Source of the DNA: a virus | DNA length: 64,000 nucleotides | Virus record (IMG/VR): IMGVR_UViG_3300032299_001203 | Coordinates: 32,001 to 96,000 of that record | Strand: one strand, 5' to 3' | Shown here: positions 3-32,221 of the stretch, piece by piece | How positions within the stretch are numbered: the first letter of the stretch is position 1 | Layout of the letters: each line of letters opens with the position of its first letter | Notes under the pieces: model-generated | Seen by the model: the letters and a program-made list of their open reading frames with translations, nothing else | Databases searched by the model: none | What the model was told of the DNA's origin: nothing | Translations under genes and position numbers: made by a program

Positions 3-2897
<2,895 letters not shown>

Positions 2898-2898
2898 A

Positions 2899-4359
2899 AT
2901 GGCTAGCAAAATACAAGTAAGACGGGATTCATCTAACAACTGGACAAGTACAAATCCTACTTTGTCGCAAGGCGAACCTGGCTATGAAATAGACACAAAT
3001 AAAATAAAATATGGTGACGGAACAACTGCTTGGAACAGCCTCGCATACACTACAGGAGCTGGATCTGGTGCTACAGGTGCGACTGGTGCTGTTGGTTCAA
3101 CCGGTGCAACAGGAATTCAAGGTGCTACGGGTGCCACAGGTATTCAAGGACCTAATGGTGTAACAGGTAATACTGGTTCAACAGGTCCAGTTGGTACAAC
3201 AGGAGCTACAGGAATTGAAGGACCTGTTGGTGCAACAGGCGCTACTGGTGTAACAGGTAATACTGGCTCTACGGGTCCAGCGGGCACAACAGATTATAAT
3301 AATTTACTCAATACTCCGACAATTAATTTGCCACAATTTGAATACCATGTGGCTCAAAATGGAAACGATACTACAGGTGACGGATCATTATTAAATCCTT
3401 GGTTGACTATTGGCAAAGCTTTAATTGCAAGTGCAAATGATGCTAGCAAAATTATACTTCATGCAGGAGAATATATTGAAGATATTAATGTGAATAATTT
3501 ATTTGCCACAACTTTCACTAGTTTTGATGCTGGTGGTTTTGGAGCTTCGTCACCATTAATTGATGGTAATGTAATTGTTAGTGGAACTAGTTCTTCAATT
3601 GCATTTAAAAATGTAGGAATAAGGCGTGGTCTCACACACAGTTCGAGTGGTTCTTTATATTTGACTGATTTAACTTTAGGATCGAGCACTTATTTGGCAA
3701 CATTTAATAAATCTGGCTCAGGTTTCCTTAGTGTTCAAGATTGTAATATGTCAGTTATTGTAGGAGGTAATTTAACAAATGTTAATATTACGGGATCAGG
3801 CATTTCATTATTTAATAATACTCAATTTGCATCTTTAACAGCAAATAACGCTTCTACACAAATTAGTTTGGTAAATGGGTGTACCACTTATTCAGTAACA
3901 TTAACTACAGGAACTTTAAATATTTTTGACGGCATAATGTATACTTTGGCTCCTAGTGCTAATGCAATCACTGCTACGGGAGGCACATTGCAATTAAGAA
4001 ATAGTTTATTAGTTAATCCTGCTAATATGACGCCTGCAAAAATTAATTTGGCTTCACCAACTGTTTTTGCATATGATGATATATTTTTTGATAGAACGAA
4101 TAGTGTTCTTGGTATTAGTGCTAATACTGTTGTTGATTTTCAAAATGTAAGATTGTTTAACAGTTTAAGTGCTAATACAATATCTGCAAATACAATTACT
4201 ATTTCAAGTTTTATAAGATATCCTGTTTATACTTCAGCAAATTTAATATCTATTACCGGTAGCGTAGGTTCAACCGTTGCTCTTAATACCGGTAAATTGG
4301 CATATTGGGATGTTGCAAATACAAGATGGAGTTATGTGTCGGATGATTCAGCAGTATAA
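2899..4359 (+). CDS. Fibre/spike protein: Mtd_N-like N-terminal domain, short collagen segment, probable beta-helix
   Basis: N-terminus KIQVRRD...W...[27 protein letters not shown] resembles the major-tropism-determinant N-terminal domain. A GXY run follows, then [25 protein letters not shown], a typical entry into a pectin-lyase-like beta-helix. Confidence 0.75.
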
Positions 4360-20200: not shown

Positions 20201-20532
20201 GTCCAGTCAATACAAATATATACGTATATTATAAAATACTTTCCAGAAACGATACACAAAAATTTGAAGAAGGTACATGGCAATTGATGACGTTAATTAA
20301 CAATAGTGATTCATTATATTCTCAAACACGAGATGACACATATGAATTTGTTGCTGCACCAGGAACATTGGGTAAATCACAAAATTATGTTTCATATACT
20401 AGTGACGTAACAAATCAAACTTACAACAACTTTAGCCAATTTGCTATTAAGGTTGTTCTATCAACATCAGATAACACTTTTGTTCCTTACCTTTCGGACA
20501 TTCGTGCTATCGCTCTACCATCGGCGGTTTAA
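14287..20532 (+). CDS. Large virion structural protein, DUF4815/VrlC-like
   Basis: FNVEPYYDDFD..KNYHRILFKPGYSVQARELTQSQTILQNQI, APGADRY, RFKNGILVDDF, DPVAQTF and C-terminal FAIKVVL...P.L.DIRAIAL; 2081 aa. Confidence 0.88.
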   Translation: MALNFNVEPYYDDFDVTKNYHRILFKPGYSVQARELTQSQTILQNQITSFADAIFAQNTPVSGGKVTVNQNVHFLKLNAITPSGLTTIAASFENGTIYSQDGSIVAKVVAFAEATSTSIGVDGDPPTLMVTYITGNKFNSGDTIYLNGSNYIATVITSSVGNEATGKGSIASISRGIFYVKGNFVTASEDTVILSKYNENPSLRVGLNATETIIDSNDDTTLLDPALGATNYQAPGADRYLISLSLETRPLTLGDDDNFIELVRLAEGSIQKQVDGTVYSVIDDYFAKRTNDTNGDFIVNDYTLTPKANTINSSKYDIGISKGVSYVRGYRLENQSPVSLINDRARTQDSVLNNPTFIDYGNYFFVNSSNGVFDVTTLPPVDFHTVDKTSISLTNENSYNSTRAATGYIRNMIYSSTSNTANGSAYIYKAYVFGIQNQTLTANVAAGSANNSYITLPSTNQFSNVANAYYNVTVSIDKGTSAGDFRVITSYDAASKIAYVDRPFTVAPTTSSQFTLRFDVTDIETIIKATPGISYNITANATIDTSSKQTNDVLADTVLQNPNAPELLFNLGNQYVSYANNTSYLTTQVFRNVAFGISGGNIVATLTFGSAPVSTLSFLGSGTLSADAVSQNFQIIVTNPGSNAGLRAGQTLPWNILSRTCSITGAGSTATFTTPSSDLTSFTATIIAKSFVKAGNDTSYIIKAKNLVTGNTTGVNLSGTNVNSYSYVDTNQGQVYITWQGLVNPGSPQKLYITDVKRIVKIIDTKSQATFPTDAMLSDPSYDITNRFTFDNGQRDSHYDFATITLGVGQPAIKGNLLVVLDYYATTGGDGYYSVMSYLAPISSSPEDYAEIPSYTSSTGNPYQLKDCLDFRPSLINAQPDFTIRASASGSGALGAYIPVDLSIFESNYGYYLSRKDKLVLTKDRSFEIIQGTPSSNPIAPGEPDGALVIANLTHDPYTAYIPGEVTGELPNLSIERVKHKRWQMRDISDLESRVNNIEYYTALNTLEKGAASLQIADGNGLNRFKNGILVDDFSSYAASDISNNDYLVSINRRTKQMTAAQVVKNFPLQSLSLVYNMGQLDSTSANNLGYKITTAGKSNFFMLAYTTANVITQQIASRTVNLNPFAVSLNSGIMDLTPPMDNWVDTEKAPDLLIVDPNLQVYRASDQVNVLQVGDWKTTVATTTDNVIAAGRNWRVNQVTTYTEQQQKTVLGNYDKLSSSYLETSGYITDVSILPYIRQQFLQFNTYGMLVNTDVSVYFDGVLVDKYIRKPNIIELTNVSGSFVDGDVIGLFAGGNFTPYAKIVSYYVNPQNSNVRLYVVTLEGITFNSGVTLQNAKFNTSGQYQSSTASGRIASYTGVSGRLRSANSTTSIQLSVASSNTDIYTGQTLYVISGSGAGQSSVISAYNTTTKTATLTTGVGAAANDIYSIGKLTTNEVGMLSGIFALPGATFKTGQRTFRVDNRIAGNIGSETTFSEATFHASGLQTTKQGVNYASSIDSAKNTFTQTQTKTNVSSYNYTTVWDPVAQTFIIDKDNYPNGCFLDSIKVFFATKPSTGYAPVTISIVGTVNGYPGGETLDHSQVTLTAEHIKTSNDPHYLNPNTYTVFKFPTPVYLEPNKLYAFILKCPTSNEYTIYTAQNGDTAISSSVKNLPTDPTPATTTKINSAPYVGSLFVSQNSQTWTADQNESMMFVVERCVFDVGSQPQIQFVVPNKLPNRKIVGQEIEYYLNANSISNTITSFENTDVSVDAFNISTTDFIPGTTSLGYQYASTVKSSYAGAPTVSVTPGKFGTPTYDDIYLNDGLGQRVLNANSNTSFSLFATMTSVNDAVSPVISDDGLSVYSITWNINNLGLSNNIITIVSGGTGYNAQTVSVTVNSTDGYGSGATAVANVVGGIIDSVRITNPGSGYITTPTMTITDDSTRSGNANASVILAGETSKSGGNALARYFTKKVVLNQGFDSGDLRVYFTAYRPVNTNIYVYYKILSRNDTQKFEEGTWQLMTLINNSDSLYSQTRDDTYEFVAAPGTLGKSQNYVSYTSDVTNQTYNNFSQFAIKVVLSTSDNTFVPYLSDIRAIALPSAV

Positions 20533-20533
20533 T

Positions 20534-20752
20534 ATGTTAGTTAAAGTAACTGGTACAACATTCGTAAGAGATACTAAAACAATGGCTCTAATCAATCAAG
20601 ATACAGCTGGTTTGGATGATTACAACTTTAAAAAACAATTAATGGGAAGCCAAAAAGAAGAAATAAATAAAATTAAAAATGAAATCAACGAAGTAAGAGA
20701 TGATATTAAAGTCATCAAAAATATGTTGATTCAGTTATCTTCCAGGAAATAA
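20534..20752 (+). CDS. Small conserved coiled-coil virion protein following VrlC
   Basis: Likely start is ATG 20534 (MLVKVTGTTFVRDTKTMALIN...), with a heptad C-terminus. The ORF-track start overlaps the previous gene and is unlikely. Confidence 0.8.
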   Translation: MLVKVTGTTFVRDTKTMALINQDTAGLDDYNFKKQLMGSQKEEINKIKNEINEVRDDIKVIKNMLIQLSSRK

Positions 20753-22986: not shown

Positions 22987-23328
22987 ATGCCGGCCGGTTA
23001 CCAAGATTTATTTTTAGAACAAGGCACAACCTTTTCAACAACCATTACCTTAGATGATGTTGATGGTGTGGCTTATGATTTGACTGGCATGCAGGCCAAA
23101 GGACAAATAAGAAGGTCTTATTATTCTGCTAATGCCACAGCCACTTTTATTGTGTCGATTCCTAGCCCAACAGAAGGTGGTATTATTTTGAATCTGGCTG
23201 CAAATACGACAGCAAATATTGCAGCAGGTAGATATGTATATGATGTGGCAATTAAAGATTCATCTAACATAATCACTAGAGTTTTAGAAGGTACTGTTAG
23301 TGTTCTTCCACAAGTAACTAGGTTTTAA
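22987..23328 (+). CDS. Small beta-sandwich adaptor protein (fibre base)
   Basis: DLFLEQGTTF...DLTG...QIRRSYYS...AGRYVYDV...RVLEGTV.V.PQVTR, a conserved phage structural adaptor pattern. Confidence 0.7.
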   Translation: MPAGYQDLFLEQGTTFSTTITLDDVDGVAYDLTGMQAKGQIRRSYYSANATATFIVSIPSPTEGGIILNLAANTTANIAAGRYVYDVAIKDSSNIITRVLEGTVSVLPQVTRF

Positions 23329-23330
23329 AA

Positions 23331-23555
23331 ATGCCAGGACAAGTAATAGGCACAGTCAATGTGCAAGTTAATACTCAGAAAGCCAGTGCGGTCAGGTCGA
23401 TTACCTATGGTGCCAGAACATTAAAAAGTGCCACAGATTTATCAATGACTGGTGCAGAAGATGGAGAAGTTGTGGTTTATGATGGAGCTACAAATTCGTT
23501 TAAAGTGGCTCCTGTATCTGCCACAGCAACTAGTTTGGATGCCGGAGAGTTCTGA
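23331..23555 (+). CDS. Small fibre linker protein ending in LDAGEF
   Basis: 74 aa, tightly packed between its neighbours; its stop overlaps the next start (TGATG). Confidence 0.75.
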   Translation: MPGQVIGTVNVQVNTQKASAVRSITYGARTLKSATDLSMTGAEDGEVVVYDGATNSFKVAPVSATATSLDAGEF

Positions 23556-23791
23556 TGGCCAATACGACCATACAGATACTTCGTTCATATGCAAACACAA
23601 GGCCGTCAAATCTAGATGATGGTGAATTGGCGTACTCTTTTGTATCCAATACATTTTTTATTGGTGATAGAAATGGTAAAATAATTACGGTTGGTGGTTT
23701 AACCACTACGGAAAATGCAGCAAATACAGTAGTTCTTAGGGATGCAAATGGTAATATTAATGTTGCAACCATAGACGGTGGAAATTTCTAA
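23555..23791 (+). CDS. Minimal Mtd_N-like domain protein ending in IDGGNF
   Basis: IQILRS...PSNLDDGELAYSF.SNTFFIG; clear paralogue of the N-terminus of the next gene. Confidence 0.8.
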   Translation: MANTTIQILRSYANTRPSNLDDGELAYSFVSNTFFIGDRNGKIITVGGLTTTENAANTVVLRDANGNINVATIDGGNF

Positions 23792-23794
23792 ATA
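23787..23794 (+). promoter_or_regulatory. Late promoter variant (TCTAAATA)
   Basis: Overlaps the stop codon, ~40 bp before the start at 23833 (RBS aagga). Confidence 0.5.
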
Positions 23795-23832
23795 GTAGTA
23801 GTGGACAACTAGCCTAATAATAAGGAAAAAAA

Positions 23833-25806
23833 ATGGCAAATACAAATATTTTAATCAAACGTTCATCGAGCACAGGACGCCCAAGTTCGCTCGCTGCTGG
23901 TGAATTAGCGTACTCGTATCAATCAAACACATTATTCTTAGGTACTGCCGCAGGTAATGGTGCTATCAACGTTGGTGGTATATACTACACCCAAGCCATT
24001 GATAATGCCACTGCTGCTGCAACTCCAGATACCATTGTTAAACGAGATGCCACAGGCAACGCTTCGTTTAATTTCATTACTGCCAACATTATTGGTACTA
24101 TTCAAGGTACTGCAAATGCTGCTGTACAATTACAAAACTCTAGAGATTTCGCTATTTCTGGTGGTGACATTACTGCTAGTGCTGTAGGTTTTAATGGTAC
24201 AGGTAACGTAACACTAAATGCTTCACTTAATGCTATTCCCGGTTTATCTGCTGGATCATACGGTTCTTCGACTGCAATTCCAGTTGTTACTGTTGCCGCT
24301 AATGGTCGTATTACTTCAATTAGCACATCTTCAATTTCTACTGAGTTTACTTTAAATGGTGATTCTGGTACTACAACCATTTCTGGTGGTGATACACTTA
24401 CTCTTACTGGTGGTGCTGGTATTACAAGTAATGTTTCCGGTGATACAGTCACTTTTGATGTAGATAATACAGTTGTTCGTTCAAATACAGCAATCACAAG
24501 TCAGACTATTGATGGCAACATTACAATTTCTGGTAACTTAACAGTTCAAGGCTCACACACAACAGTTAACACATCCACATTGAATGTTGTTGATCCATTA
24601 ATTATCTTAGCTTCAAATAACACATCTGATGCAGTTGATATTGGTTTTGCTGCTCATTACAATGATGGTTCTACAAACAGACATACCGGTTTCTTCCGTG
24701 ATGCTGGTACAAAAGAATACCACGTATTTGATAACTACACTCCTGAATTGGTTGGTAATAGCATTGATGTTGCTAATGCATCTTTTAGACATGCAAACGT
24801 TAATGCATCAGTAGTTAAAGGTAATTTGATTGCCACAACAGCCGTATCTGATGGTTTTTATGGTAATACAGGCGCTGTATTGAATTTGTATCCAAATCAA
24901 GCATATGCCGCATCAGGTAACCAATATATTGTTGTTGATCCAACTGCACCAAATCATATTCATCTTCGTGCTGGTGGTACAATTGATGCTTCTACTGCTG
25001 AATTGTATTTGGGTGGTGAACAAACTAATGTTAATGTAAGTGACACTACAAAAGAAGTATACATTCGTGCAAACAATGCTCATGTAACAACATTTGCTAA
25101 CAATGGTACATTAATTGTTTCTAATAAAGTTATTGCTAATGGTCTCAATCTAAACGACCACTCACAAGCTGCATTTGATAAGGCCAATTCTTCTGTAACA
25201 TCTACAACATCATTAACATTAGGTCAGTTAGTTATTGGCACTGGTAGTAATACTGTTGCAACATTGGCAAATTCAACATATGTGTTAACCGGTTCTTTAT
25301 CTGCTTCTAAAACAATCACATCACTCACAGTTGATGCTTATGGTCGTGTAACTGCTGCCACTGGTGCTGATATTGCAATCGATACTTCTGCAATTACTTC
25401 TGGCACATTGAGTGTTGAAAGAGGCGGTACAGGTCAATCTTCATTTACAACAGGTGCAATTCTTGTTGGTAATGGTTCAGGTGGTTTACAGACTCTTGCT
25501 AATTCAACATTCACAGCAACGGGTTCTGGTGCTTCGAACAACACAATATCTTCAGTAACCGTTGATTCGTATGGCCGTTTAACAGCTACAACGTTCTCGG
25601 CAATTTCTGGTTTAACTGTTGGTCAAGGTGGTACAGGTCGTTCAACATTTACCACAAACGGTATTATATATGGTAATTCCACAGACGGTCAATTGGTAAC
25701 TGCTGCCGCAGGTACCGCTGATCAGACATGGAGTAATCAAATTCTTACTGTTACGAATGCTGGTGTTCCAGTTTGGACTAGGTCTTTAGATGGCGGCACA
25801 TTCTAA
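23833..25806 (+). CDS. Long fibre shaft protein with Mtd_N-like N-terminus, ending in LDGGTF
   Basis: ILIKRSS...PSSLAAGELAYSY; fibre repeats (TVAANGRIT, TVDAYGRVT, L.V..GGTG.S.FT); G/T/S/A/N-rich. Confidence 0.8.
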   Translation: MANTNILIKRSSSTGRPSSLAAGELAYSYQSNTLFLGTAAGNGAINVGGIYYTQAIDNATAAATPDTIVKRDATGNASFNFITANIIGTIQGTANAAVQLQNSRDFAISGGDITASAVGFNGTGNVTLNASLNAIPGLSAGSYGSSTAIPVVTVAANGRITSISTSSISTEFTLNGDSGTTTISGGDTLTLTGGAGITSNVSGDTVTFDVDNTVVRSNTAITSQTIDGNITISGNLTVQGSHTTVNTSTLNVVDPLIILASNNTSDAVDIGFAAHYNDGSTNRHTGFFRDAGTKEYHVFDNYTPELVGNSIDVANASFRHANVNASVVKGNLIATTAVSDGFYGNTGAVLNLYPNQAYAASGNQYIVVDPTAPNHIHLRAGGTIDASTAELYLGGEQTNVNVSDTTKEVYIRANNAHVTTFANNGTLIVSNKVIANGLNLNDHSQAAFDKANSSVTSTTSLTLGQLVIGTGSNTVATLANSTYVLTGSLSASKTITSLTVDAYGRVTAATGADIAIDTSAITSGTLSVERGGTGQSSFTTGAILVGNGSGGLQTLANSTFTATGSGASNNTISSVTVDSYGRLTATTFSAISGLTVGQGGTGRSTFTTNGIIYGNSTDGQLVTAAAGTADQTWSNQILTVTNAGVPVWTRSLDGGTF

Positions 25807-25838
25807 AGTAGTTTTATAATCTATATTATTTTTTATGT

Positions 25839-25856
25839 GGCCACTTTCGGGTGGCC
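25839..25856 (+). promoter_or_regulatory. UUCG-tetraloop hairpin upstream of an RBS
   Basis: ggccact-ttcg-ggtggcc. There is no downstream U-tract, so it is not a classical terminator. Confidence 0.6.
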
Positions 25857-25876
25857 CAACAATTTAGGAGTTTGAA

Positions 25877-26560
25877 ATGGGAAATGAAAAGTTTGTTAAT
25901 TATTATATTGAAAATTTAATTGCCACGATGAATGATTGTTTGATAAGAAACATATCATTACAAGTAAACGAAAGAATTAGTAAAGAAGCAATTGAAGATC
26001 AATCTAAAGCAATTGAAGATTTACAAAATACTATTGAATCTTTAAAAAAAGAAAATCATTTTTTACAAGATAATAGACAGGTTTCTGACCAAGAAAAATA
26101 TCAAAATTTAGAAAATAGTATTAAAGAGCATTTAAATACCATTAGAGGTTTAAATGAACGAATTGCTGAAGCCGACAAACTTAAAAATGAATATGAAAAT
26201 GTAAAACATCAGGTTCAACATGTTGATACATTTAGAAATGAATTGATTAAAACTCAAAAAGAATTGGAAGAAGTTAAATCACAAAATGTTAGTCAACAAA
26301 GTTTGAATGACCAAGTTAATAGACTACAAGCTGAACTCACCAATTCACAAAATATTATCATTCAAAAAAATGGTATTATTGAGAAAATTAATATTGATAG
26401 AGATAAAACAATTGCTGAACTATCAGAAAAAATTGAATATTTACAATTAACTCCTGCCAAGCGAAAAAAAATTGATGAAGAAAGAGCCAAAGAAATAGAA
26501 GCTCCTGCTTCAGATTTATTTGTTTCCGATACATTAGATAGGGACGGCGGAAGTTTTTAA
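25877..26560 (+). CDS. Charged coiled-coil protein ending in DGGSF
   Basis: E/K/Q/N/L/I-rich heptads throughout; strong RBS aggag. Confidence 0.8.
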   Translation: MGNEKFVNYYIENLIATMNDCLIRNISLQVNERISKEAIEDQSKAIEDLQNTIESLKKENHFLQDNRQVSDQEKYQNLENSIKEHLNTIRGLNERIAEADKLKNEYENVKHQVQHVDTFRNELIKTQKELEEVKSQNVSQQSLNDQVNRLQAELTNSQNIIIQKNGIIEKINIDRDKTIAELSEKIEYLQLTPAKRKKIDEERAKEIEAPASDLFVSDTLDRDGGSF

Positions 26561-26564
26561 GTAA

Positions 26565-27227
26565 ATGGCAATTGCAAACACGACTGTAAAGTTAAAAAAT
26601 TCAGGTGTAGCAAATAATGTACCATCATCACTATTATTTGGTGAGTTGGCGATCAATTACGCCGATGGAAAATTATTTTATAAAAACGCCAACAATTCAA
26701 TTGTAGCATTTACTTCTGGTGCAAATGCTTCCAATACATCATCATTTGCAACTGTTAATGCAAATTCATCTTTAGTTCTTGCTACATCCTCTACAGACAC
26801 ATTAAATTTAGCGGCCGCAAATGGTATTAGTATTACAACTAATACAATCACCAAAACAATTACATTTGGTGATGCAGCCACTCAACAATTAGCTCAAGCA
26901 GCTTTTGATGCCGCAAATAATGCTTCTAGTGGAGGTGGCGGAGTATTAACTTCTACGGTCAATACTTTTTTAGGTAATGGTTCAAATAGATTTTTTAATT
27001 TAACGGTAACACCTACAGATATTAATTATACAACTTTAGTAATTGGTGGTGTTTCACAACCTAGAAGTTATTATACGGTTGCTGGTTCTTTATTAACAAC
27101 CAGTTCAGCACCAGCAAACAACATTATTGTTGAAGTAACCACGGTAGGCACATCCAATACAACACTATATACCATTAATTACACAACAAATAATATTCTT
27201 AGTCCATTTTTATTAATGGGCGCTTAA
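26565..27227 (+). CDS. Fibre connector: Mtd_N-like N-terminus, C-terminal PFLLMGA
   Basis: VKLKNSG....PSSLLFGELAINYADGKLFYKN; a GNGS...F.L...GGVSQP...YTV..S.L...APAN domain follows. Confidence 0.75.
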   Translation: MAIANTTVKLKNSGVANNVPSSLLFGELAINYADGKLFYKNANNSIVAFTSGANASNTSSFATVNANSSLVLATSSTDTLNLAAANGISITTNTITKTITFGDAATQQLAQAAFDAANNASSGGGGVLTSTVNTFLGNGSNRFFNLTVTPTDINYTTLVIGGVSQPRSYYTVAGSLLTTSSAPANNIIVEVTTVGTSNTTLYTINYTTNNILSPFLLMGA

Positions 27228-27237
27228 AGGAAAAAAT

Positions 27238-27567
27238 ATGGGGATAGTTTATAAAGTACTAGGACAATCCAATCCAACGGCAAATACTGCTGGAACATTG
27301 TATACTGTGCCTGGAGGAACTAGTGCAGTAATTAGTACTGTTACTGTATGTAATCAATCAGCTACACCTGCATGGTTTAATCTTGCGGTTCAACCAGCTG
27401 GTGCACCATTGGCAGCCAAACATTATGTGAATTTCAATACTCCAGTTCCTGGAAATGATACAGTTTCTTTAACACTTGGTATTACTTTGGGTAATACTGA
27501 CATCTTATCTTGTAATGCCAATACTAGCACCGTAAGCTTTAATGTATTTGGCAGCGAGATAAGTTAA
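27238..27567 (+). CDS. ~110-aa beta-sandwich adaptor protein (copy 1)
   Basis: YKVLGQ.NP.A....TLYTVP....AVISTVTVCN...LTLGITL...D.L....SFNVFGSEI. Confidence 0.75.
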   Translation: MGIVYKVLGQSNPTANTAGTLYTVPGGTSAVISTVTVCNQSATPAWFNLAVQPAGAPLAAKHYVNFNTPVPGNDTVSLTLGITLGNTDILSCNANTSTVSFNVFGSEIS

Positions 27568-28847
27568 TGGCAATCACAACAGCAAGTCAAGCTCAACTAG
27601 GACAAGCTACTGCCAAGAATAGTCAAGTAGTTACTACTGCGGTAAAACTGATTAATTCTGGTGGTGGAGCAGCTGCTGGTCCTAATATTACATCTATTAT
27701 CGTAACAGATAGTGGATATAATAATTTGGATGATACGGCTGCTGCAACAAGTAATTCGTATATTAAAATTCTTGGCACAGGTTTTCAATCAACTGCCAAT
27801 GTGTTTCTTAATGGTACGATGGTACTAAAAGCCAATGTTACATTTGTAAGTTCTACTGAATTGCGGGCTGTATTGCCTGTTTCTAATACAGGCAACTATG
27901 CGGTATCAGTTTATAATTCTAATTCAGCGGGTGCATTGTATTCAAGTTCATTTGTTATTTCTACAATGCCACAATGGCTGACATCAGCAACTTTAGCTAA
28001 TGTAACCAGTAATACAGTATTTTCTGAAACATTATCTGCTACTTCCGATTCATCTGTTACATATGCCAACACCACTATATTACCAACCGGATTTAATTTA
28101 TTAGCCAATGGATATTATTTTGGTAATATATCAGTTGGTGCAACCACAACATACTCATTTGATGTTAAAGCTACTGACGCTCAAAATCAAGATTCGACCA
28201 GAACATTTAGTTTAACAACAATCACAGTAAATCCTTATGGTGATTTTGGATTTTCTTTAGAAGGTGGAACTTTAACAAATATAGGATCAGGTTCAAATGC
28301 GATGAATAATAATGGAGCATCCGTTTCAACCGCTCAAGCTGCTCAAGGATCCTACTCATTATATTTTAATGGATCCGCTTCAGTTGATATAAATTCAACC
28401 AATTCTAGTACTTGGTCATTTTTAAGTTCTTCACCATTAGGAACAAATACTTTAGGTACAATTGAATTTTATATTTACCCACAAACGGCACCCCCCAGAG
28501 GAGTAATGGTAGGGAGTTATCGTTCCTCACAAGAAAAAGGATGGACGATTGACTATGATCAGTTTGGTAATTTATTTTTTGCAAGAGATTCCAGTGGCCC
28601 AGGCACATATGCGGTTGGTTTGTCATTTAATACTTGGACAAAACTAGGATTTGTTTTTAGAACTGATGGTAATCACCAAATAGAAATTTATAAAAATGGA
28701 ACATATCACGGCACGTATAATTATGGTTCTGCCGCCACCTTTAGTGAAGCAAATATGAGAATTGGCCGAAGAGGTGACAACTCTTTAGGAACAGTTGGTT
28801 ATATTGACGACTTTAAAATATGGCTAGGTACCAGAGGCCCCTACTAA
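27567..28847 (+). CDS. Putative receptor-binding protein: IPT/TIG-like, Ig-like and LamG/ConA-like lectin domains
   Basis: IKILGTGFQ....VFLNG...VTFVSSTELRAVLP; LP.G..L...G...G.....TYSFDVKATD; SLYFNG...TIEFYIYP...WTKLGFV...IYKNG...IG.R....GYIDDFKIW. Confidence 0.75.
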   Translation: MAITTASQAQLGQATAKNSQVVTTAVKLINSGGGAAAGPNITSIIVTDSGYNNLDDTAAATSNSYIKILGTGFQSTANVFLNGTMVLKANVTFVSSTELRAVLPVSNTGNYAVSVYNSNSAGALYSSSFVISTMPQWLTSATLANVTSNTVFSETLSATSDSSVTYANTTILPTGFNLLANGYYFGNISVGATTTYSFDVKATDAQNQDSTRTFSLTTITVNPYGDFGFSLEGGTLTNIGSGSNAMNNNGASVSTAQAAQGSYSLYFNGSASVDINSTNSSTWSFLSSSPLGTNTLGTIEFYIYPQTAPPRGVMVGSYRSSQEKGWTIDYDQFGNLFFARDSSGPGTYAVGLSFNTWTKLGFVFRTDGNHQIEIYKNGTYHGTYNYGSAATFSEANMRIGRRGDNSLGTVGYIDDFKIWLGTRGPY

Positions 28848-28884: not shown

Positions 28885-30054
28885 ATGACTACCTTAAAAA
28901 TACAACCGTTAGCCGTAGACCAAACAGGTGACTTCTATTTTAATACAGTCACGGCTAATAATTTACTTGTAAATACGGTCAATGTATATGATTCTATTGT
29001 TGGTGCCAATGCCAATATTGCTTTACTATTTTCAGTAAACAATTATCAAAATACCATAATAACCAATGTAAACACCTATGCAACCTCTGCATATGGTCAA
29101 GCAAACATTGCTACAACATTGGCTCAAGCGGCTTTCAATTACGCTAATACTATTGTTAGCGATACACAAATTGACCCATTTGCCAGAGCAAATGCAAATG
29201 CGGCTTTGGCCACAGCCAATACAGCATCAGCAAACACCATTTATTTACAAGGTGTTAATACCACACAAAATACCAATATTACAACTGCTGATGTAAAAGC
29301 TCAAGCGGCTTTTGATAAAGCAAATACTGGTGTAACTACTTCATTTGACCAGTATGCCAGAGATACTGCCAATTCAGCACAAGCCAATACCATCTACAAT
29401 CAAGGTGTAGATACAACTCAGAATACTAATATCTCCTTATTACAAGGAGCAATGACTTCAGCCAATGCCAATATAGTACAAATATTTGGTATTACGTTGG
29501 GCCAAAATGCTTTTTCACAAGCAGCTTTTAATACAGCCAATACAGCCTCAGCAAACACAATCTATTTACAAGGCGTTGTTTCAGGCCAAAATACATTTAT
29601 TCAAGCGGCTTTTGATAGGGCAAATACCGGTATATCAGATTCCATAGATGCTATTGCTAGAGCCAATGCAAATGCAGCTTATGGTCAAGCAAATATTGCT
29701 ACATCGTTGGCTCAATCCGCTTTTGATTATGCCAACACCATTCAAGGTGGAGGCGGTAGTGGTACCTTTACCGGTGGTTTAGTCACAGGACCTACAATTT
29801 TTGCCAGCACCTTACAAGCCAACGGTGCTGTAAGAATTGCCAACACCAGCGGTAATGTAGTATATACTTTACCAAATTATGATGGTGTTACTGGTCAGTC
29901 CTTAATAACTGATGGTTACGGAAGATTACAATGGACTACTTTGACTGCTATAAATGGTACTGGTGGTGGTACTAGTACCGGTTTTCCATATGTTGATTTA
30001 GGTTTTGTTTGGGAAAATCCGAGTGTACTTCTTGATATGGGTACGTTGACCTAA
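28885..30054 (+). CDS. Coiled-coil fibre stalk protein
   Basis: Repeated AQAAF.xANT and ANTIYLQGV units; LP..DG..GQ.LITDG.G.L.W motif; ends VDLGFV...LDMGTLT. Confidence 0.75.
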   Translation: MTTLKIQPLAVDQTGDFYFNTVTANNLLVNTVNVYDSIVGANANIALLFSVNNYQNTIITNVNTYATSAYGQANIATTLAQAAFNYANTIVSDTQIDPFARANANAALATANTASANTIYLQGVNTTQNTNITTADVKAQAAFDKANTGVTTSFDQYARDTANSAQANTIYNQGVDTTQNTNISLLQGAMTSANANIVQIFGITLGQNAFSQAAFNTANTASANTIYLQGVVSGQNTFIQAAFDRANTGISDSIDAIARANANAAYGQANIATSLAQSAFDYANTIQGGGGSGTFTGGLVTGPTIFASTLQANGAVRIANTSGNVVYTLPNYDGVTGQSLITDGYGRLQWTTLTAINGTGGGTSTGFPYVDLGFVWENPSVLLDMGTLT

Positions 30055-30100: not shown

Positions 30101-31879
30101 ATGCCAGCTACACAATTACAATTCAGAAAAGGTAACACCGCCCAGCACTCCACCTTCACCGGTGCGTTTGCCGAGGTTACAGTAGACACCGACAAGAAAG
30201 TTATTGTTGTTCACGATGCCGTCACTCCTGGTGGTACTCCAATGGCAACCGCAGCGTTTGCTCAAGCTGCTTTCAACAAAGCGAATACAACTGCCACCAA
30301 TAATAGAATTACAGTAAGTAATACCGCAGGTTATGTTCCGACGGCCAACACATTATTACCTGGTGAATTATTTGGTAATTTATTTGATGGTAAATTGTAT
30401 ATGCAGCTTACAACAGGTCGCATTATTGACCTTTCAACAAGAGCTGTAGGTAAAACATTCTATGTTTCGACAACCGGTTCAGATACTTTTGATGGAGTAA
30501 CGCCATCTGGTGCGAAAGCAACTATTCGTGCTGCATTAGCCTTGGCTCAACCAACTGATATTGTTCAAGTATTTGCTGGTACTTACACAGAAATTAATCC
30601 TTTAATTCTTCCACAAAACGTACAGTTAGTAGGTGCTGGTGAAAGAGCTTGCATCATTCAGCCTTCCGATCCAACTAAAGATATTATTTGGGTAAATAAC
30701 AATTCTTATGTGACCGGTTTTAAATTTATAAATTATTCTAAATCTGCGATTGCTTTTCCAGATTTAGTCATTGATGCCAATACTACGGTAGCTGCAACAC
30801 AAAATACGTTTACTCTACGATCAGGTGTACCTTACGATAATTTTTATAATAGTATGAGAATTACTATTACTGGTGGTATTGGTGCTGGACAATTTTCAAA
30901 CGTGGCATCTTATAATGCCGCAACTAGAGTTTGCACAATGGATGTAAATTGGAATCCTTTTCCAACCAATACATCCACCTATTCAATTGGCATTCCTTTG
31001 AGAACAACACCTGCAGCCAACACAACAAGATATACAACCAATATTACAGGTAGTCCTTACATTTATAATTGTTCTTCTATTACTTCAAATGGTACCGGCA
31101 TTAAAGTTGATGGAGCTTTATCAACAGGAAATAAGAGTATTATTTCTGCACAATTTACACAAGTAAATTCTAATGGCCGAGGCATTCATATTACCAATGA
31201 CGGATATTCTCAATTAGTTTCTATTTACGGTATTTTCTGTGACACTGCTTTTTTAGCTGATAATGGTGGTACTGCTTCACTAGGTAACTGTAACGTTAAC
31301 TTTGGTAACAAAGGTCTAGTGGCTAATGGTAAAGGTGCTTTAGCAATGACAGCTCGTTTTGCTAATACATCGGCAGAGGCCTGTACCTCTATTTTTCTAA
31401 ATACAATTAGTTCAAATACCGATTTAGGTATCACCGCCAATGTACCGTATTCTGGTTTAGTAATGAAAATTACTGGAGATGGTGTAGACAATTATTATTC
31501 AGTCGCTGAGGCAACTCCATTGTCTGCAGGAAATACACAAGTAACATTTCAAACTGGATTACCTGTTAGTTGGCCAAGTGAAACAACAGTTTCATTTTTT
31601 CAACAAAGTCAATTAAGAGCTTCTGGCCAAACATTTGAATTTGTTGGTGCTGGCACCAGTATAAATTCTTTGCCAAAATCAGGCGGAGTACCAAATGTGG
31701 AATCTCAAATTATTACAATTGGTGAAGGCGCAGTGTTTGCTACATCTACCGATCAAGACGGAAACTTTAAGGTATCGGAGTTAGTAATTAATCAATCAAC
31801 ATCAACCATTACAGGTAGAACTTTCTCAAAAAGTCTTTTTGCAGAAATGACGCCATATATTCTTGCTCTGGAGACTTAA
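30101..31879 (+). CDS. Fibre/spike protein: two Mtd_N-like domains plus right-handed beta-helix
   Basis: QLQFRKG...FTGAFAEVTVDTDKK...VHDAVTPGG, then PGELFGNLFDGKLY. YVSTTGSD..DG...TIRAAL...AGTYTE.NPL, SPYIYNCSS and TSTDQDGNF are typical of cyanophage-like fibre proteins. Confidence 0.75.
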   Translation: MPATQLQFRKGNTAQHSTFTGAFAEVTVDTDKKVIVVHDAVTPGGTPMATAAFAQAAFNKANTTATNNRITVSNTAGYVPTANTLLPGELFGNLFDGKLYMQLTTGRIIDLSTRAVGKTFYVSTTGSDTFDGVTPSGAKATIRAALALAQPTDIVQVFAGTYTEINPLILPQNVQLVGAGERACIIQPSDPTKDIIWVNNNSYVTGFKFINYSKSAIAFPDLVIDANTTVAATQNTFTLRSGVPYDNFYNSMRITITGGIGAGQFSNVASYNAATRVCTMDVNWNPFPTNTSTYSIGIPLRTTPAANTTRYTTNITGSPYIYNCSSITSNGTGIKVDGALSTGNKSIISAQFTQVNSNGRGIHITNDGYSQLVSIYGIFCDTAFLADNGGTASLGNCNVNFGNKGLVANGKGALAMTARFANTSAEACTSIFLNTISSNTDLGITANVPYSGLVMKITGDGVDNYYSVAEATPLSAGNTQVTFQTGLPVSWPSETTVSFFQQSQLRASGQTFEFVGAGTSINSLPKSGGVPNVESQIITIGEGAVFATSTDQDGNFKVSELVINQSTSTITGRTFSKSLFAEMTPYILALET

Positions 31880-31882
31880 AAA

Positions 31883-32221
31883 ATGGCTACAATAGCATTA
31901 AATACATTTAAAACAACTACAGCGAATGTAACAACAGTCCAACAGACAATATATACCGCACCTGCTGGAGTAACCACAGTTATTCTTTTGGCTCAAGTTT
32001 CAAATATAGATACAACCAATTCTGTAACAGTTTCTGCGAATCACGTTAGAGGTTCAAATGTTACTTCAATCATTAGAAACACCACTATTCCTATTAGAGA
32101 TGCCGCCACTTTATTAACAGGTAAATTAATTTTGCAAACAGGAGATTCATTTACTGCAATTGCTGATGCCAATAATAGAGGACAATTGTTGTTGTCTTAC
32201 TTAGAAACAGCTAATCAATAA
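31883..32221 (+). CDS. ~110-aa beta-sandwich adaptor protein (copy 2)
   Basis: NTFKT......IYTAPAG.T.VILLAQVSN...GKLILQTGD...LSYLET; same layout as 27238. Confidence 0.72.
   Translation: MATIALNTFKTTTANVTTVQQTIYTAPAGVTTVILLAQVSNIDTTNSVTVSANHVRGSNVTSIIRNTTIPIRDAATLLTGKLILQTGDSFTAIADANNRGQLLLSYLETANQ

What the first reader, a model, noticed from the sequence alone, without database searches (positions are those of the whole stretch)
22987..28847. Candidate plug-and-socket code for fibre assembly: C-terminal DGGxF peptides paired with Mtd_N-like domains of the next gene
Seen: four consecutive, otherwise dissimilar ORFs end in nearly the same peptide: LDAGEF (23555), IDGGNF (23791), LDGGTF (25806) and RDGGSF (26560). 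In three of the four cases the next ORF starts with the same domain, (I/V)x(I/L)(K/L)(R/N)S...PS(S/N)L..GELA(Y/I) (23555, 23833, 26565). Known: the Mtd N-terminal domain of Bordetella phage BPP-1 is the virion-proximal end of that receptor-binding trimer. Inference: DGGxF is a terminal docking peptide that inserts into the Mtd_N-like domain. Gene order would then spell out an assembly chain of adaptor 22987 > 23331 > 23555 > 23833 > 26565 > 27238 > LamG tip 27567. This would be a modular, swappable appendage-building system that I do not know to have been described as such.
Basis: partly seen in the sequence, partly recalled or inferred. Interest (0 to 1): 0.9.

Follow-up and report, generated by a model that had tools for sequence, protein, structure and literature searches.

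The report
Plug-and-socket joints chaining phage fibres
Four neighbouring tail-fibre proteins of this T4-like phage end in a short Asp-Gly-Gly-x-Phe peptide that most likely clips onto a small cap domain at the start of the next protein, which is the same sequence pair found where gp36 joins gp37 in the phage T4 long tail fibre, so fibre assembly order may be partly readable from gene sequence.

Summary
Exactly four ORFs in the window and in the whole 104-kb contig end in D[GA]GxF. They are consecutive, and three are followed by a gene that opens with the same about 50-residue domain.

The pattern is conserved in 80 related viral contigs: 108 of 119 cap-bearing ORFs have a plug-ending ORF directly upstream. 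It recurs in unrelated myo-, sipho- and podoviruses.

A complex prediction of 3 x 74 aa with 3 x 78 aa scored ipSAE 0.86 against a best control of 0.01. It places residues 63-74 of the upstream protein on residues 1-26 of the downstream one. This supports binding but does not show it.

The cap is not a Pfam Mtd_N domain. It belongs to the N-terminal domain family of T4 gp37, and T4 gp36 ends in DFGYY. The literature states that trimeric gp36 binds the N-terminal region of gp37.

The 113-aa protein at the head of the chain has the fold of the T5/DT57C collar protein LtfC.

Three points are unresolved: the partner of the 657-aa fibre's plug, the role of the coiled-coil protein, and whether the plug subtypes form a specificity code. 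The distal part of the proposed chain uses a different joint.

The scan has noted the same pairing on at least 30 other genomes. My verdict is a generalisation of a known joint, with a residue-level mechanism I did not find described.

The parts
22987..23328 (+). 113-aa LtfC/p132-like beta-sandwich protein; the probable dock or collar at the base of the fibre
   Evidence: PHROG 3304 'L-shaped tail fiber protein assembly', E 2.6e-20. Pfam LtfC hit is below cut-off at 15.4 bits. AF2 model pLDDT 90.7. Foldseek top hits are DT57C LtfC 8hqz_T (E 2.8e-10, TM 0.76) and T5 7qg9_L.
23331..23555 (+). 74-aa plug-only protein; the plug LDAGEF is residues 69-74 (nt 23535-23552)
   Evidence: In 30 homologues down to about 20% identity, only G72 and F74 are invariant. 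Residues 63-74 form the predicted interface. Its stop codon overlaps the next gene's start (TGATG).
23555..23791 (+). 78-aa adaptor: socket (residues 1 to about 48, QILRSYAN...GELAYS) plus plug IDGGNF (nt 23771-23788)
   Evidence: Residues 1-14, 17-18, 21, 24 and 26 contact the upstream plug in the model. Its own C-terminus (residues 72-78) has pLDDT below 50 in the monomer model.
23833..25806 (+). 657-aa fibre shaft: socket (residues 1 to about 52, ILIKRS...GELAYS) and plug LDGGTF (nt 25786-25803)
   Evidence: Its C-terminal 64 aa match the syntenic protein of Prochlorococcus phages, which ends IDGGTF. Complete proteins of this socket type in the 1.84-billion library end W..LDGGxF.
25877..26560 (+). 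227-aa E/K/Q-rich, presumably coiled-coil protein with plug RDGGSF (nt 26540-26557) and a conserved helical N-terminus
   Evidence: No Pfam or PHROG hit. Among 27 orthologues the terminal F is invariant and 21 end KDGG[ST]F.
26565..27227 (+). 220-aa fibre segment with the distal-type socket (KLKNSG...GELAINYADGKLFYK); no DGGxF plug; ends SPFLLMGA
   Evidence: The socket type is conserved behind KDGGSF plugs. In the top 150 library hits, proteins with this socket type are 90-1845 aa long and only 1 of 106 ends in the plug.
27238..27567 (+). 109-aa small protein that follows the PFLLMGA terminus; a second kind of joint, not the DGGxF kind
   Evidence: PHROG 1276 and 11338. The pairing of ..[PS]FLL[MAG]G[AM] termini with this family is conserved in loci.
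27567..28847 (+). 426-aa IPT/TIG + LamG (Laminin_G_3) protein, the presumed tip; this gene is absent from the 97%-identical relative L003
   Evidence: Pfam PF13385 E 4.9e-12 and PF01833. Gene order in L003.
30296..30439 (+). Internal socket-like domain (residues 66-113) of the 592-aa protein, whose N-terminus is a true Mtd_N; a candidate acceptor for an unpaired plug
   Evidence: My HMM hits this region in homologues. hhalign probability 80%. 15.7 bits with the A3 profile. Pfam Mtd_N at residues 7-39.

Best explanation
This is a serial fibre joint of the T4 gp36-gp37 type.

The parts. The 113-aa LtfC-like protein is the dock on the tail. The 74-aa protein anchors there and presents a C-terminal D-x-G-x-F peptide. 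Three such peptides, from one trimer, lie as added beta-strands along the first strand (residues about 4-11, I-x-I-[KL]-[RK]-S) and the G-E-L-A turn of the trimeric N-terminal cap of the next protein.

The chain. The same joint is used for 74 aa to 78 aa, for 78 aa to the 657-aa shaft, and for the 227-aa coiled coil to the 220-aa distal segment. Separate gene products are thereby bolted end to end. The distal, variable segment needs only the conserved cap to be mounted.

What is shown. The motifs, their conservation and adjacency, homology of the cap to the gp37 N-terminus, the LtfC fold, and the published finding that gp36 trimers bind the gp37 N-terminal region.

What is predicted. The 74/78 interface.

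What is inferred. The other two joints, the strand-addition geometry, the attachment of the 74-aa protein to the LtfC-like dock, and the partner of the 657-aa plug.
For: 1. Exactly four consecutive ORFs carry the motif.
2. In 80 loci fetched with the neighbouring LtfC-like gene as a motif-blind anchor, the order is: LtfC-like, then a ~75-aa plug protein, then an optional ~65-aa socket+plug protein, then a ~600-aa socket+plug protein, then a coiled coil with plug, then a socket-only protein. 108 of 119 socket ORFs have a plug ORF directly upstream, against a mean of 23.5 and a maximum of 36 in 2000 gene-order shuffles.
3. In the 74-aa family only G72 and F74 are invariant.
4. Complex prediction of 3 x 78 aa + 3 x 74 aa: ipSAE 0.86 (runs 0.86, 0.88, 0.67) against a best control of 0.01. 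In calibration this mark was reached by 58 of 80 solved complexes and 2 of 110 mismatched pairs. Runs agree in at least 94% of contacts. Partner pLDDT is at least 71. The interface is residues 63-74 with residues 1-14, 17-18, 21, 24 and 26.
5. No solved homologue by sequence for either chain or for the socket profile, so sequence-level memory is unlikely.
6. Lineages retrieved with the socket alone have a G-x-[FY] terminus on the upstream gene: Limnohabitans DC31, Ralstonia PY059YO380, Vibrio 1.293.O, ctpbd312, and, with 1-3 extra residues, S-CBS2/S-CRES3 and BcepSaruman.
7. T4 gp36 ends DFGYY. The next gene, gp37, starts with the socket, scoring 31.1 bits with E 9e-6 at Z=1e6. 118 of 120 gp36 homologues end D-x-G-x-[FY]. 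[quoted passage not shown]
8. LtfC fold of the 113-aa protein. In DT57C, LtfA is attached to LtfC by donated beta-strands (PMC10713586).
9. All best 150 of 12,769 library clusters carry the domain at residues 1-5.
Against: - No binding was measured. The only complex job used my own alignments and copy numbers unlike the calibration set.
- The window has four plugs but only three N-terminal sockets. The 657-aa plug is followed by a coiled coil.
- In four T4-like cyanophages the socket-bearing fibre has no plug gene upstream. One MAG locus shows a plug followed by a protein with only a partial socket.
- In several proteins the Phe is not terminal but followed by 1-3 residues, so a free carboxylate is not essential.
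- Conserved adjacency within the 80 loci is largely shared ancestry.
- The plug/socket subtype concordance (44 of 44) reduces to 1-2 independent events on the tree, with sign test p = 1. It also fails in T4 and DC31.
- The monomer model of the socket is mediocre (pLDDT 64.5) and finds no fold match.
Confidence: 0.66

Rival explanations
1. Plugs and sockets do pair, but not collinearly. The apparatus would be branched. The 657-aa plug would dock on the distal-type socket (as in DC31 and the Ralstonia phage) or on the internal socket of the 30101 protein. The coiled-coil protein would be a fibritin-like strut or assembly factor that uses the same plug, rather than an in-line fibre segment.
For: - There are four plugs and three N-terminal sockets, plus one internal socket-like domain in ORF 30101.
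- In DC31 and Ralstonia PY059YO380 the shaft plug IDGGT[YF] is followed directly by the distal-type socket, with no coiled coil.
- Vibrio 1.293.O has three plugs for two sockets.
- In T4 the coiled-coil fibritin is reported to touch the gp36-gp37 junction region (PMC3004832).
Against: - The order shaft, coiled coil, distal socket is kept in about 30 loci, with 4-7 nt between the last two genes.
- KDGGSF is specifically conserved in front of the distal-type socket.
- No test of any alternative pairing was possible.
Confidence: 0.17
2. The DGGxF peptide binds a common third partner, such as a fibre chaperone or a repeated site on the baseplate. Its position in front of socket genes would then reflect only conserved operon order.
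For: - The same peptide sits on four unrelated scaffolds.
- Adjacency within the marine clade is inherited.
- Some sockets lack an adjacent plug gene.
- In Pakpunavirus P7-1, fibre N-knobs bind loops of a baseplate protein rather than another fibre (PMC13338283).
Against: - The pairing recurs in lineages with otherwise different gene content and tail types.
- Position-specific plug subtypes are kept across the clade.
- The predicted interface is plug-on-socket with controls near zero.
- T4 gp36 binds gp37 directly.
Confidence: 0.09
3. The motif is an intrinsic folding or trimerisation cap of each protein's own C-terminus, like a very small foldon, and makes no contact with other proteins.
For: - Terminal aromatic residues can close the hydrophobic core of trimeric fibres (general knowledge).
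- The motif follows a common 'G..V...G.P.W' type fibre element in the 657-aa protein and its relatives.
Against: - It also ends a coiled coil and 65-aa mini-proteins that have no such element.
- The C-terminus of the 78-aa protein is unstructured in its own model.
- The distal-type socket proteins, which are also trimeric fibres, almost never carry it: 1 of 106.
- The complex model uses it as the interface.
Confidence: 0.08

Closest known systems
Phage T4 long tail fibre, distal half: the gp36-gp37 joint
   Same: gp37 opens with the same N-terminal domain (IQFKRS...GELAINLKD...IF.KD): 31 bits with the profile built from this window and its relatives. gp36, encoded immediately upstream, ends D-F-G-Y-Y, a terminus kept in 118 of 120 homologues. 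Trimeric gp36 binds the N-terminal region of gp37 (PMC3004832).
   Different: T4 uses the joint once; here it is used three or four times in a row. The plug carriers here are not gp36 homologues: there is no PF03903 hit. They include 65-78-aa mini-adaptors and a coiled coil. The residue-level contact in T4 is not resolved in the texts I read; the fibre maps are at about 7-8 A.
T5 / DT57C lateral tail fibre attachment: the LtfC (p132) collar with the LtfA N-terminus
   Same: The 113-aa protein has the LtfC fold and sits directly upstream of the fibre genes. Attachment there works by donated beta-strands that extend a partner's sheet (PMC10713586), the same physical principle predicted for the plug.
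   Different: LtfC is a dodecameric ring on a siphovirus tail tip, whereas this is a T4-like myovirus with gp6- and gp8-like baseplate genes. In DT57C the donor is the fibre's own N-terminus, not a separate 74-aa protein. Pfam's LtfC model scores below its cut-off.
Bordetella phage BPP-1 Mtd N-terminal domain (Pfam Mtd_N, PF18454)
   Same: A short N-terminal beta domain of a trimeric receptor-binding protein with a similar motif layout (hydrophobic strand - R/K - ... - GE - ... - hydrophobic strand - G). hhalign aligns the two in the same register.
   Different: The three sockets do not reach Pfam's model, while two other proteins of the same window do. The socket profile gives a true Mtd_N 4 bits. 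No plug partner is known for Mtd (own knowledge).
Anchor-and-branch receptor-binding protein systems (CBA120 TSP1-4, G7C gp63.1/gp66, Klebsiella KP32-type phages with T4 gp10-like domains); from my own knowledge
   Same: Conserved terminal modules mount interchangeable receptor-binding proteins on a common stalk.
   Different: In those systems the docking element is an N-terminal peptide or XD domain of the incoming protein on a gp10-like branching domain. Here it is a C-terminal six-residue peptide of the proximal protein on an N-terminal cap of the distal one.
Pakpunavirus P7-1 fibre attachment (gp89 loops FAL1/FAL2 holding the fibres' N-knobs)
   Same: An N-terminal knob of a trimeric fibre grips a short peptide segment of the more proximal protein (PMC13338283).
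   Different: The peptide there is an internal loop of a baseplate protein. The socket profile found no P7-1 or other phage chain among solved structures.

Membership tests
T4 gp36-gp37 type fibre joint | The downstream protein opens with the gp37 N-terminal domain | tested here: met
   The profile A3 (this window's three sockets plus relatives) hits T4 gp37 residues 6-51 at 31.1 bits, E 9e-6 with Z set to 1e6. The domain starts at residues 1-5 in all best 150 library hits.
T4 gp36-gp37 type fibre joint | The protein encoded directly upstream ends in D-x-G-x-[FY] | tested here: met
   T4 gp36 ends DFGYY. 118 of 120 gp36 homologues end this way. The window has LDAGEF, IDGGNF and RDGGSF in front of sockets.
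T4 gp36-gp37 type fibre joint | The upstream protein is a gp36 homologue (Pfam PF03903) | tested here: not met
   No PF03903 hit at E up to 0.1 for the 74-, 78-, 657- or 227-aa proteins. Only the terminal peptide is shared.
T4 gp36-gp37 type fibre joint | Physical binding of the upstream trimer to the N-terminal region of the downstream trimer | not testable with these tools
   Prediction only: ipSAE 0.86 against a best control of 0.01, a mark reached by 58 of 80 solved and 2 of 110 mismatched pairs. For T4 itself the binding is stated in PMC3004832.
Mtd_N (Pfam PF18454) | Score at or above Pfam's gathering cut-off (26.3 bits) | tested here: not met
   No hit at E up to 0.1 for ORFs 23555, 23833 and 26565. 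ORFs 2899 (49.9 bits) and 30101 (41.4 bits) of the same window do pass.
Mtd_N (Pfam PF18454) | Remote profile similarity or shared fold | tested here: inconclusive
   hhalign of A3 against the Mtd_N of ORF 2899 gives probability 39.7%, E 3e-4, same register. The monomer model has pLDDT 64.5 and no Foldseek match at E up to 0.001.
LtfC / p132 fibre collar (Pfam PF23926), for ORF 22987 | Single-domain beta-sandwich with the LtfC fold | tested here: met
   AF2 pLDDT 90.7. Foldseek gives 8hqz_T at E 2.8e-10 and TM 0.76, and 7qg9_L at E 5.7e-10. PHROG 3304 at E 2.6e-20.
LtfC / p132 fibre collar (Pfam PF23926), for ORF 22987 | Pfam score at or above the cut-off (27 bits) | tested here: not met
   15.4 bits, E 0.028.
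LtfC / p132 fibre collar (Pfam PF23926), for ORF 22987 | Ring around the tail that holds fibre N-termini by strand donation | not testable with these tools
   Known for DT57C (PMC10713586).

The most novel reading that the evidence does not exclude
The plug and cap form a portable address code. Under this reading there are at least three mutually orthogonal subtypes: D-[A/S/E]-G-F-F with Q-I-L-R-S caps, [V/I]-D-G-G-x-F with I-K-R-S caps, and K-D-G-G-S-F with L-K-K-S-G...NYADGKLYYK caps. These subtypes would fix the order and branching of fibre segments. They could be placed on any trimeric scaffold, and they would let the appendage architecture of phages from all three tail types be read from genome sequence.
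Probability: 0.3. Interest if true: 0.8.

Novelty: new variant of a known kind. Interest (0 to 1): 0.62.

Why it matters
How the separate proteins of long phage fibres are joined is known only at the level of which protein binds which, even for T4. A six-residue C-terminal peptide plus a cap of about 50 residues would give that joint a concrete, mutable mechanism.

It would explain why very variable receptor-binding proteins share a conserved N-terminus; the cap family has 12,769 clusters in the library searched.

It would also let annotators predict which fibre genes form one appendage and in what order, including in uncultured phages.

It turns the T4 gp36-gp37 junction into a directly testable model for a widespread connector.

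Tried and rejected
- Nucleotide search of the region against 50,697 phage records found nothing.
- PDB sequence searches with the socket profile, the 657-aa fibre, and the 74- and 78-aa families gave only spurious repeat-protein hits or nothing.
- The AF2 monomer of the 78-aa protein was mediocre (pLDDT 64.5), and its Foldseek search gave no match at E up to 0.001. The weak top rows, collagen XVIII/XV trimerisation domains, were not pursued.
- The search for related loci with the socket alignment failed for lack of a conserved stretch. With a single socket it returned one MAG contig whose arrangement is only partly consistent.
- I tested the idea that plug residue -4 and socket residue 9 covary as a contact pair. 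The concordance is 44 of 44 and the model puts them in contact. It reduces to 1-2 independent events on the tree, with sign test p = 1, and it fails in T4 and DC31, so I do not count it as evidence for a code.
- The Ralstonia 112-aa protein could not be shown to be LtfC-like (probability 15%).
- Literature searches for a described C-terminal Phe docking peptide, for cyanomyovirus fibre structures, and for Mtd_N as an adaptor found nothing relevant.
- No tRNA is present in the window. The promoter and terminator scans were at background.

Full report
**Context**

The window is the structural module of a T4-like myovirus, with all genes on the plus strand. It carries gp6-like, baseplate-wedge and gp8-like genes and a 2081-aa DUF4815/VrlC-like protein. 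It also carries a 733-aa fibre with a Peptidase_S74 chaperone domain. G+C is about 35%. The contig held is 104 kb.

**The observation**

ORFs 23331-23555 (74 aa), 23555-23791 (78 aa), 23833-25806 (657 aa) and 25877-26560 (227 aa) end LDAGEF, IDGGNF, LDGGTF and RDGGSF.
- A scan of all ORFs of 40 aa or more on both strands finds D[GA]G.F at a C-terminus in these four only, in the window and in the whole contig.
- ORFs 23555, 23833 and 26565 open with one domain, M-A-N-T-x-[IV]-x-[IL]-[KL]-[RKN]-S ... P-S-x-L-x-x-G-E-L-A.

**Conservation**

I fetched 80 viral contigs using the neighbouring 113-aa gene as a query that is blind to both motifs. The loci share one gene grammar:
1. a protein of about 112 aa;
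2. a protein of about 75 aa ending D-x-G-x-F;
3. optionally a protein of 61-88 aa that is just the N-terminal domain plus DGGxF;
4. a fibre of 450-800 aa with both elements;
5. a 140-230-aa helical protein ending KDGGSF, or in distant members ..DDF, with the terminal Phe present in 27 of 27;
6. a protein of 160-1300 aa with the N-terminal domain and no plug.

Further points:
- Of 119 domain-bearing ORFs, 108 have a plug-ending ORF directly upstream. Shuffling gene order within loci gives a mean of 23.5 and a maximum of 36. Much of this excess is shared ancestry.
- In an alignment of 30 homologues of the 74-aa protein, down to about 20% identity, the only invariant residues are G72 and F74.
- The same cluster exists in the Prochlorococcus T4-like phages P-HM1 and MED4-213: VrlC, small coiled coil, 112 aa, 73 aa ending NGGSF, 560 aa from MASNILIKRS to IDGGTF, 68 aa ending PDDF, then gp7.

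**Independent lineages**

I ran tblastn with the first 60 residues of ORF 26565 only, so the search was blind to the plug. It retrieved several unrelated phages. In each phage below, the gene in front of a socket gene ends in the peptide.

| Phage | Order of products (upstream to downstream) |
|---|---|
| Limnohabitans DC31 | 92 aa ending ESGQY; 589 aa, socket to IDGGTY; 118 aa with socket |
| Ralstonia PY059YO380 | 89 aa ending TDGGNF; 466 aa, socket to IDGGTF; 226 aa with socket |
| Vibrio podovirus 1.293.O | 146 aa ending IDGGDY; 174 aa ending VDGGSF; 239 aa, socket to IDGGSF; 682-aa socket plus pectin-lyase spike |
| Siphovirus ctpbd312 | 853-aa upstream protein ending IAGGAF; 827 aa with socket |
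| S-CBS2/S-CRES3 and BcepSaruman | plug motif present, followed by 1-3 extra residues |

- DC31 also has the LtfC-like gene in front (hhalign probability 98.5%).
- Four T4-like cyanophage fibres with the socket have no plug gene upstream.
- One MAG contig is only partly consistent.

**Predicted contact**

I had one complex job and used it on three copies of the 78-aa protein with three copies of the 74-aa protein, each supplied with its alignment.
- ipSAE was 0.86 (runs 0.86, 0.88, 0.67) against a best control of 0.01. In calibration this mark was reached by 58 of 80 solved complexes and 2 of 110 mismatched pairs.
- The runs agree in at least 94% of their contacts, and partner pLDDT is at least 71.
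- The tool's verdict is that the model supports binding but does not show it. It also notes that my own alignments and the copy numbers differ from its calibration.
- The closest pairs rise together (socket 4-11 with plug 68-74), which I read as a parallel added strand.
- Neither chain, nor the socket profile, has a relative among solved structures by sequence. A pass from sequence-level memory is therefore unlikely.
- In the monomer model of the 78-aa protein, its own C-terminal seven residues have pLDDT below 50. This fits a peptide that waits for a partner.

**What the socket is**

- Pfam's Mtd_N model finds ORFs 2899 and 30101 of this window but none of the three sockets.
- The socket profile gives the true Mtd_N 4 bits. 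hhalign aligns the two in register at only 40% probability.
- The same profile gives T4 gp37 residues 6-51 a score of 31.1 bits, E 9e-6 for a nominal million sequences.
- T4 gp37 starts [39 protein letters not shown]. The gene directly upstream, gp36, ends SVQDFGYY.
- Of the 120 best gp36 homologues, 118 end D-x-G-x-[FY].
- The review of T4 tail morphogenesis states that trimeric gp36 first binds the N-terminal region of gp37 (PMC3004832).
- A 2026 preprint resolves the T4 fibre only at about 7-8 A and does not describe the junction at residue level.

The feature is therefore the T4 gp36-gp37 joint, used serially and on carriers that are not gp36 homologues.

**Base of the chain**

The 113-aa protein models at pLDDT 90.7. 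Its best structural matches are DT57C LtfC and T5 p132, with E about 3e-10 and TM 0.76. In DT57C, LtfC is a collar that holds the fibre by beta-strands donated to its sheets (PMC10713586). That the 74-aa protein plays this part here is inference from gene order only.

**Size of the family**

The socket profile finds 12,769 clusters at E up to 1e-3 in 1.84 billion representatives. In all 150 best hits it starts at residues 1-5, on proteins of 74 to 1845 aa. Complete proteins with the shaft-type socket end W..LDGGxF. Proteins with the distal-type socket almost never carry a plug (1 of 106) and have very varied bodies. This fits a conserved proximal chain with exchangeable distal parts.

**What is not settled**

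1. The 657-aa plug has no socket in the next gene. Candidate partners are the conserved helical N-terminus of the 227-aa protein, the distal-type socket (as in DC31 and the Ralstonia phage), or the internal socket-like domain at residues 66-113 of the 30101 protein.
2. Plug subtypes track socket subtypes within the clade. The concordance of plug residue -4 with socket residue 9 is 44 of 44, and the model puts these two in contact. On the tree of the LtfC-like protein this needs only two changes and gives 1-2 independent pairs, with sign test p = 1. The rule also fails in T4 and DC31. A specificity code is therefore not shown.
3. The steps 26565 > 27238 > 27567 rest on another conserved pairing. 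Termini of the type PFLLMGA are followed by a family of about 109 aa, and TPYILALE[TG] by a paralogous family of about 112 aa. I did not test this for binding.

**Earlier notes of this scan**

Notes on at least 30 other genomes describe the same pairing, and several follow-ups name the same T4 joint. I reached the T4 link from the sequence, before reading them. They are AI notes and I do not count them as evidence.

**Verdict**

The docking reading is supported by prediction, comparative genomics and a homologous, experimentally known protein-protein joint. It remains unmeasured. The Mtd_N label and the single collinear chain are not supported as stated. I rate the finding a new variant of a known kind.

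Noticed in passing
window 26565-27567 and 30101-32221: There is a second terminal-motif pairing. The 220-aa protein ends SPFLLMGA and is followed by a 109-aa protein. The 592-aa protein ends TPYILALET and is followed by a paralogous 112-aa protein. Both pairings recur in related loci, and the gene after the 112-aa type starts MPN..LISGRVPV...DRY.
   Followed up: partly
window 27567-28847 versus L003: The IPT/TIG + LamG gene is missing from the 97%-identical relative L003. There the 109-aa gene is followed directly by a 598-aa protein that starts like ORF 28885. This looks like a tip cassette gained or lost between close relatives.
   Followed up: partly
window 30296-30439 (residues 66-113 of ORF 30101-31879): A protein with a true Pfam Mtd_N start carries a second, internal copy of the gp37-N-type socket after an alanine-rich linker. 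Homologues in L003, L004, L006 and L008 have it too.
   Followed up: partly
window 3-2897 / 2899-4359: The 964-aa collagen-like ORF ends LIYNGGTA one base before the gene whose product starts with a true Mtd_N domain. This may be a related terminal peptide in front of the canonical Mtd_N.
   Followed up: no
window 28885-30054; library hits P0008, P0011, P0015 and others: ORF 28885 ends YVDLGFV...LLDMGTLT, and many distal-type socket proteins elsewhere end [FY]DYG[TFS]L. Divergent gp36 homologues end VLDYGIF or VLDYGEF, so these may be further plugs for partners not identified here.
   Followed up: no
window 25807-25876: The 70-nt gap before the coiled-coil gene holds a G+C-rich hairpin (GTGGCCAC TTTC GGGTGGCC, about 25838-25858). 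It has no T-run and stands in an otherwise A+T-rich spacer. The other junctions in the cluster are -1 to 41 nt, and the 74-aa stop codon overlaps the 78-aa start (TGATG).
   Followed up: no
L010, L027, L028, L053-L071; L084, L085: In several homologues the Phe of the plug is followed by one to three residues (DGGTFT, DGGIFS, SGGTFGSG, DEGTYSGT). The free C-terminal carboxylate therefore cannot be essential to the motif.
   Followed up: partly
window 20441-20752: A small coiled-coil ORF lies between the VrlC-like gene and the S74 fibre. It has a counterpart of about 73 aa at the same place in most related loci and in P-HM1/MED4-213. Its start codon is uncertain because it overlaps the end of the 2081-aa gene.
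   Followed up: no
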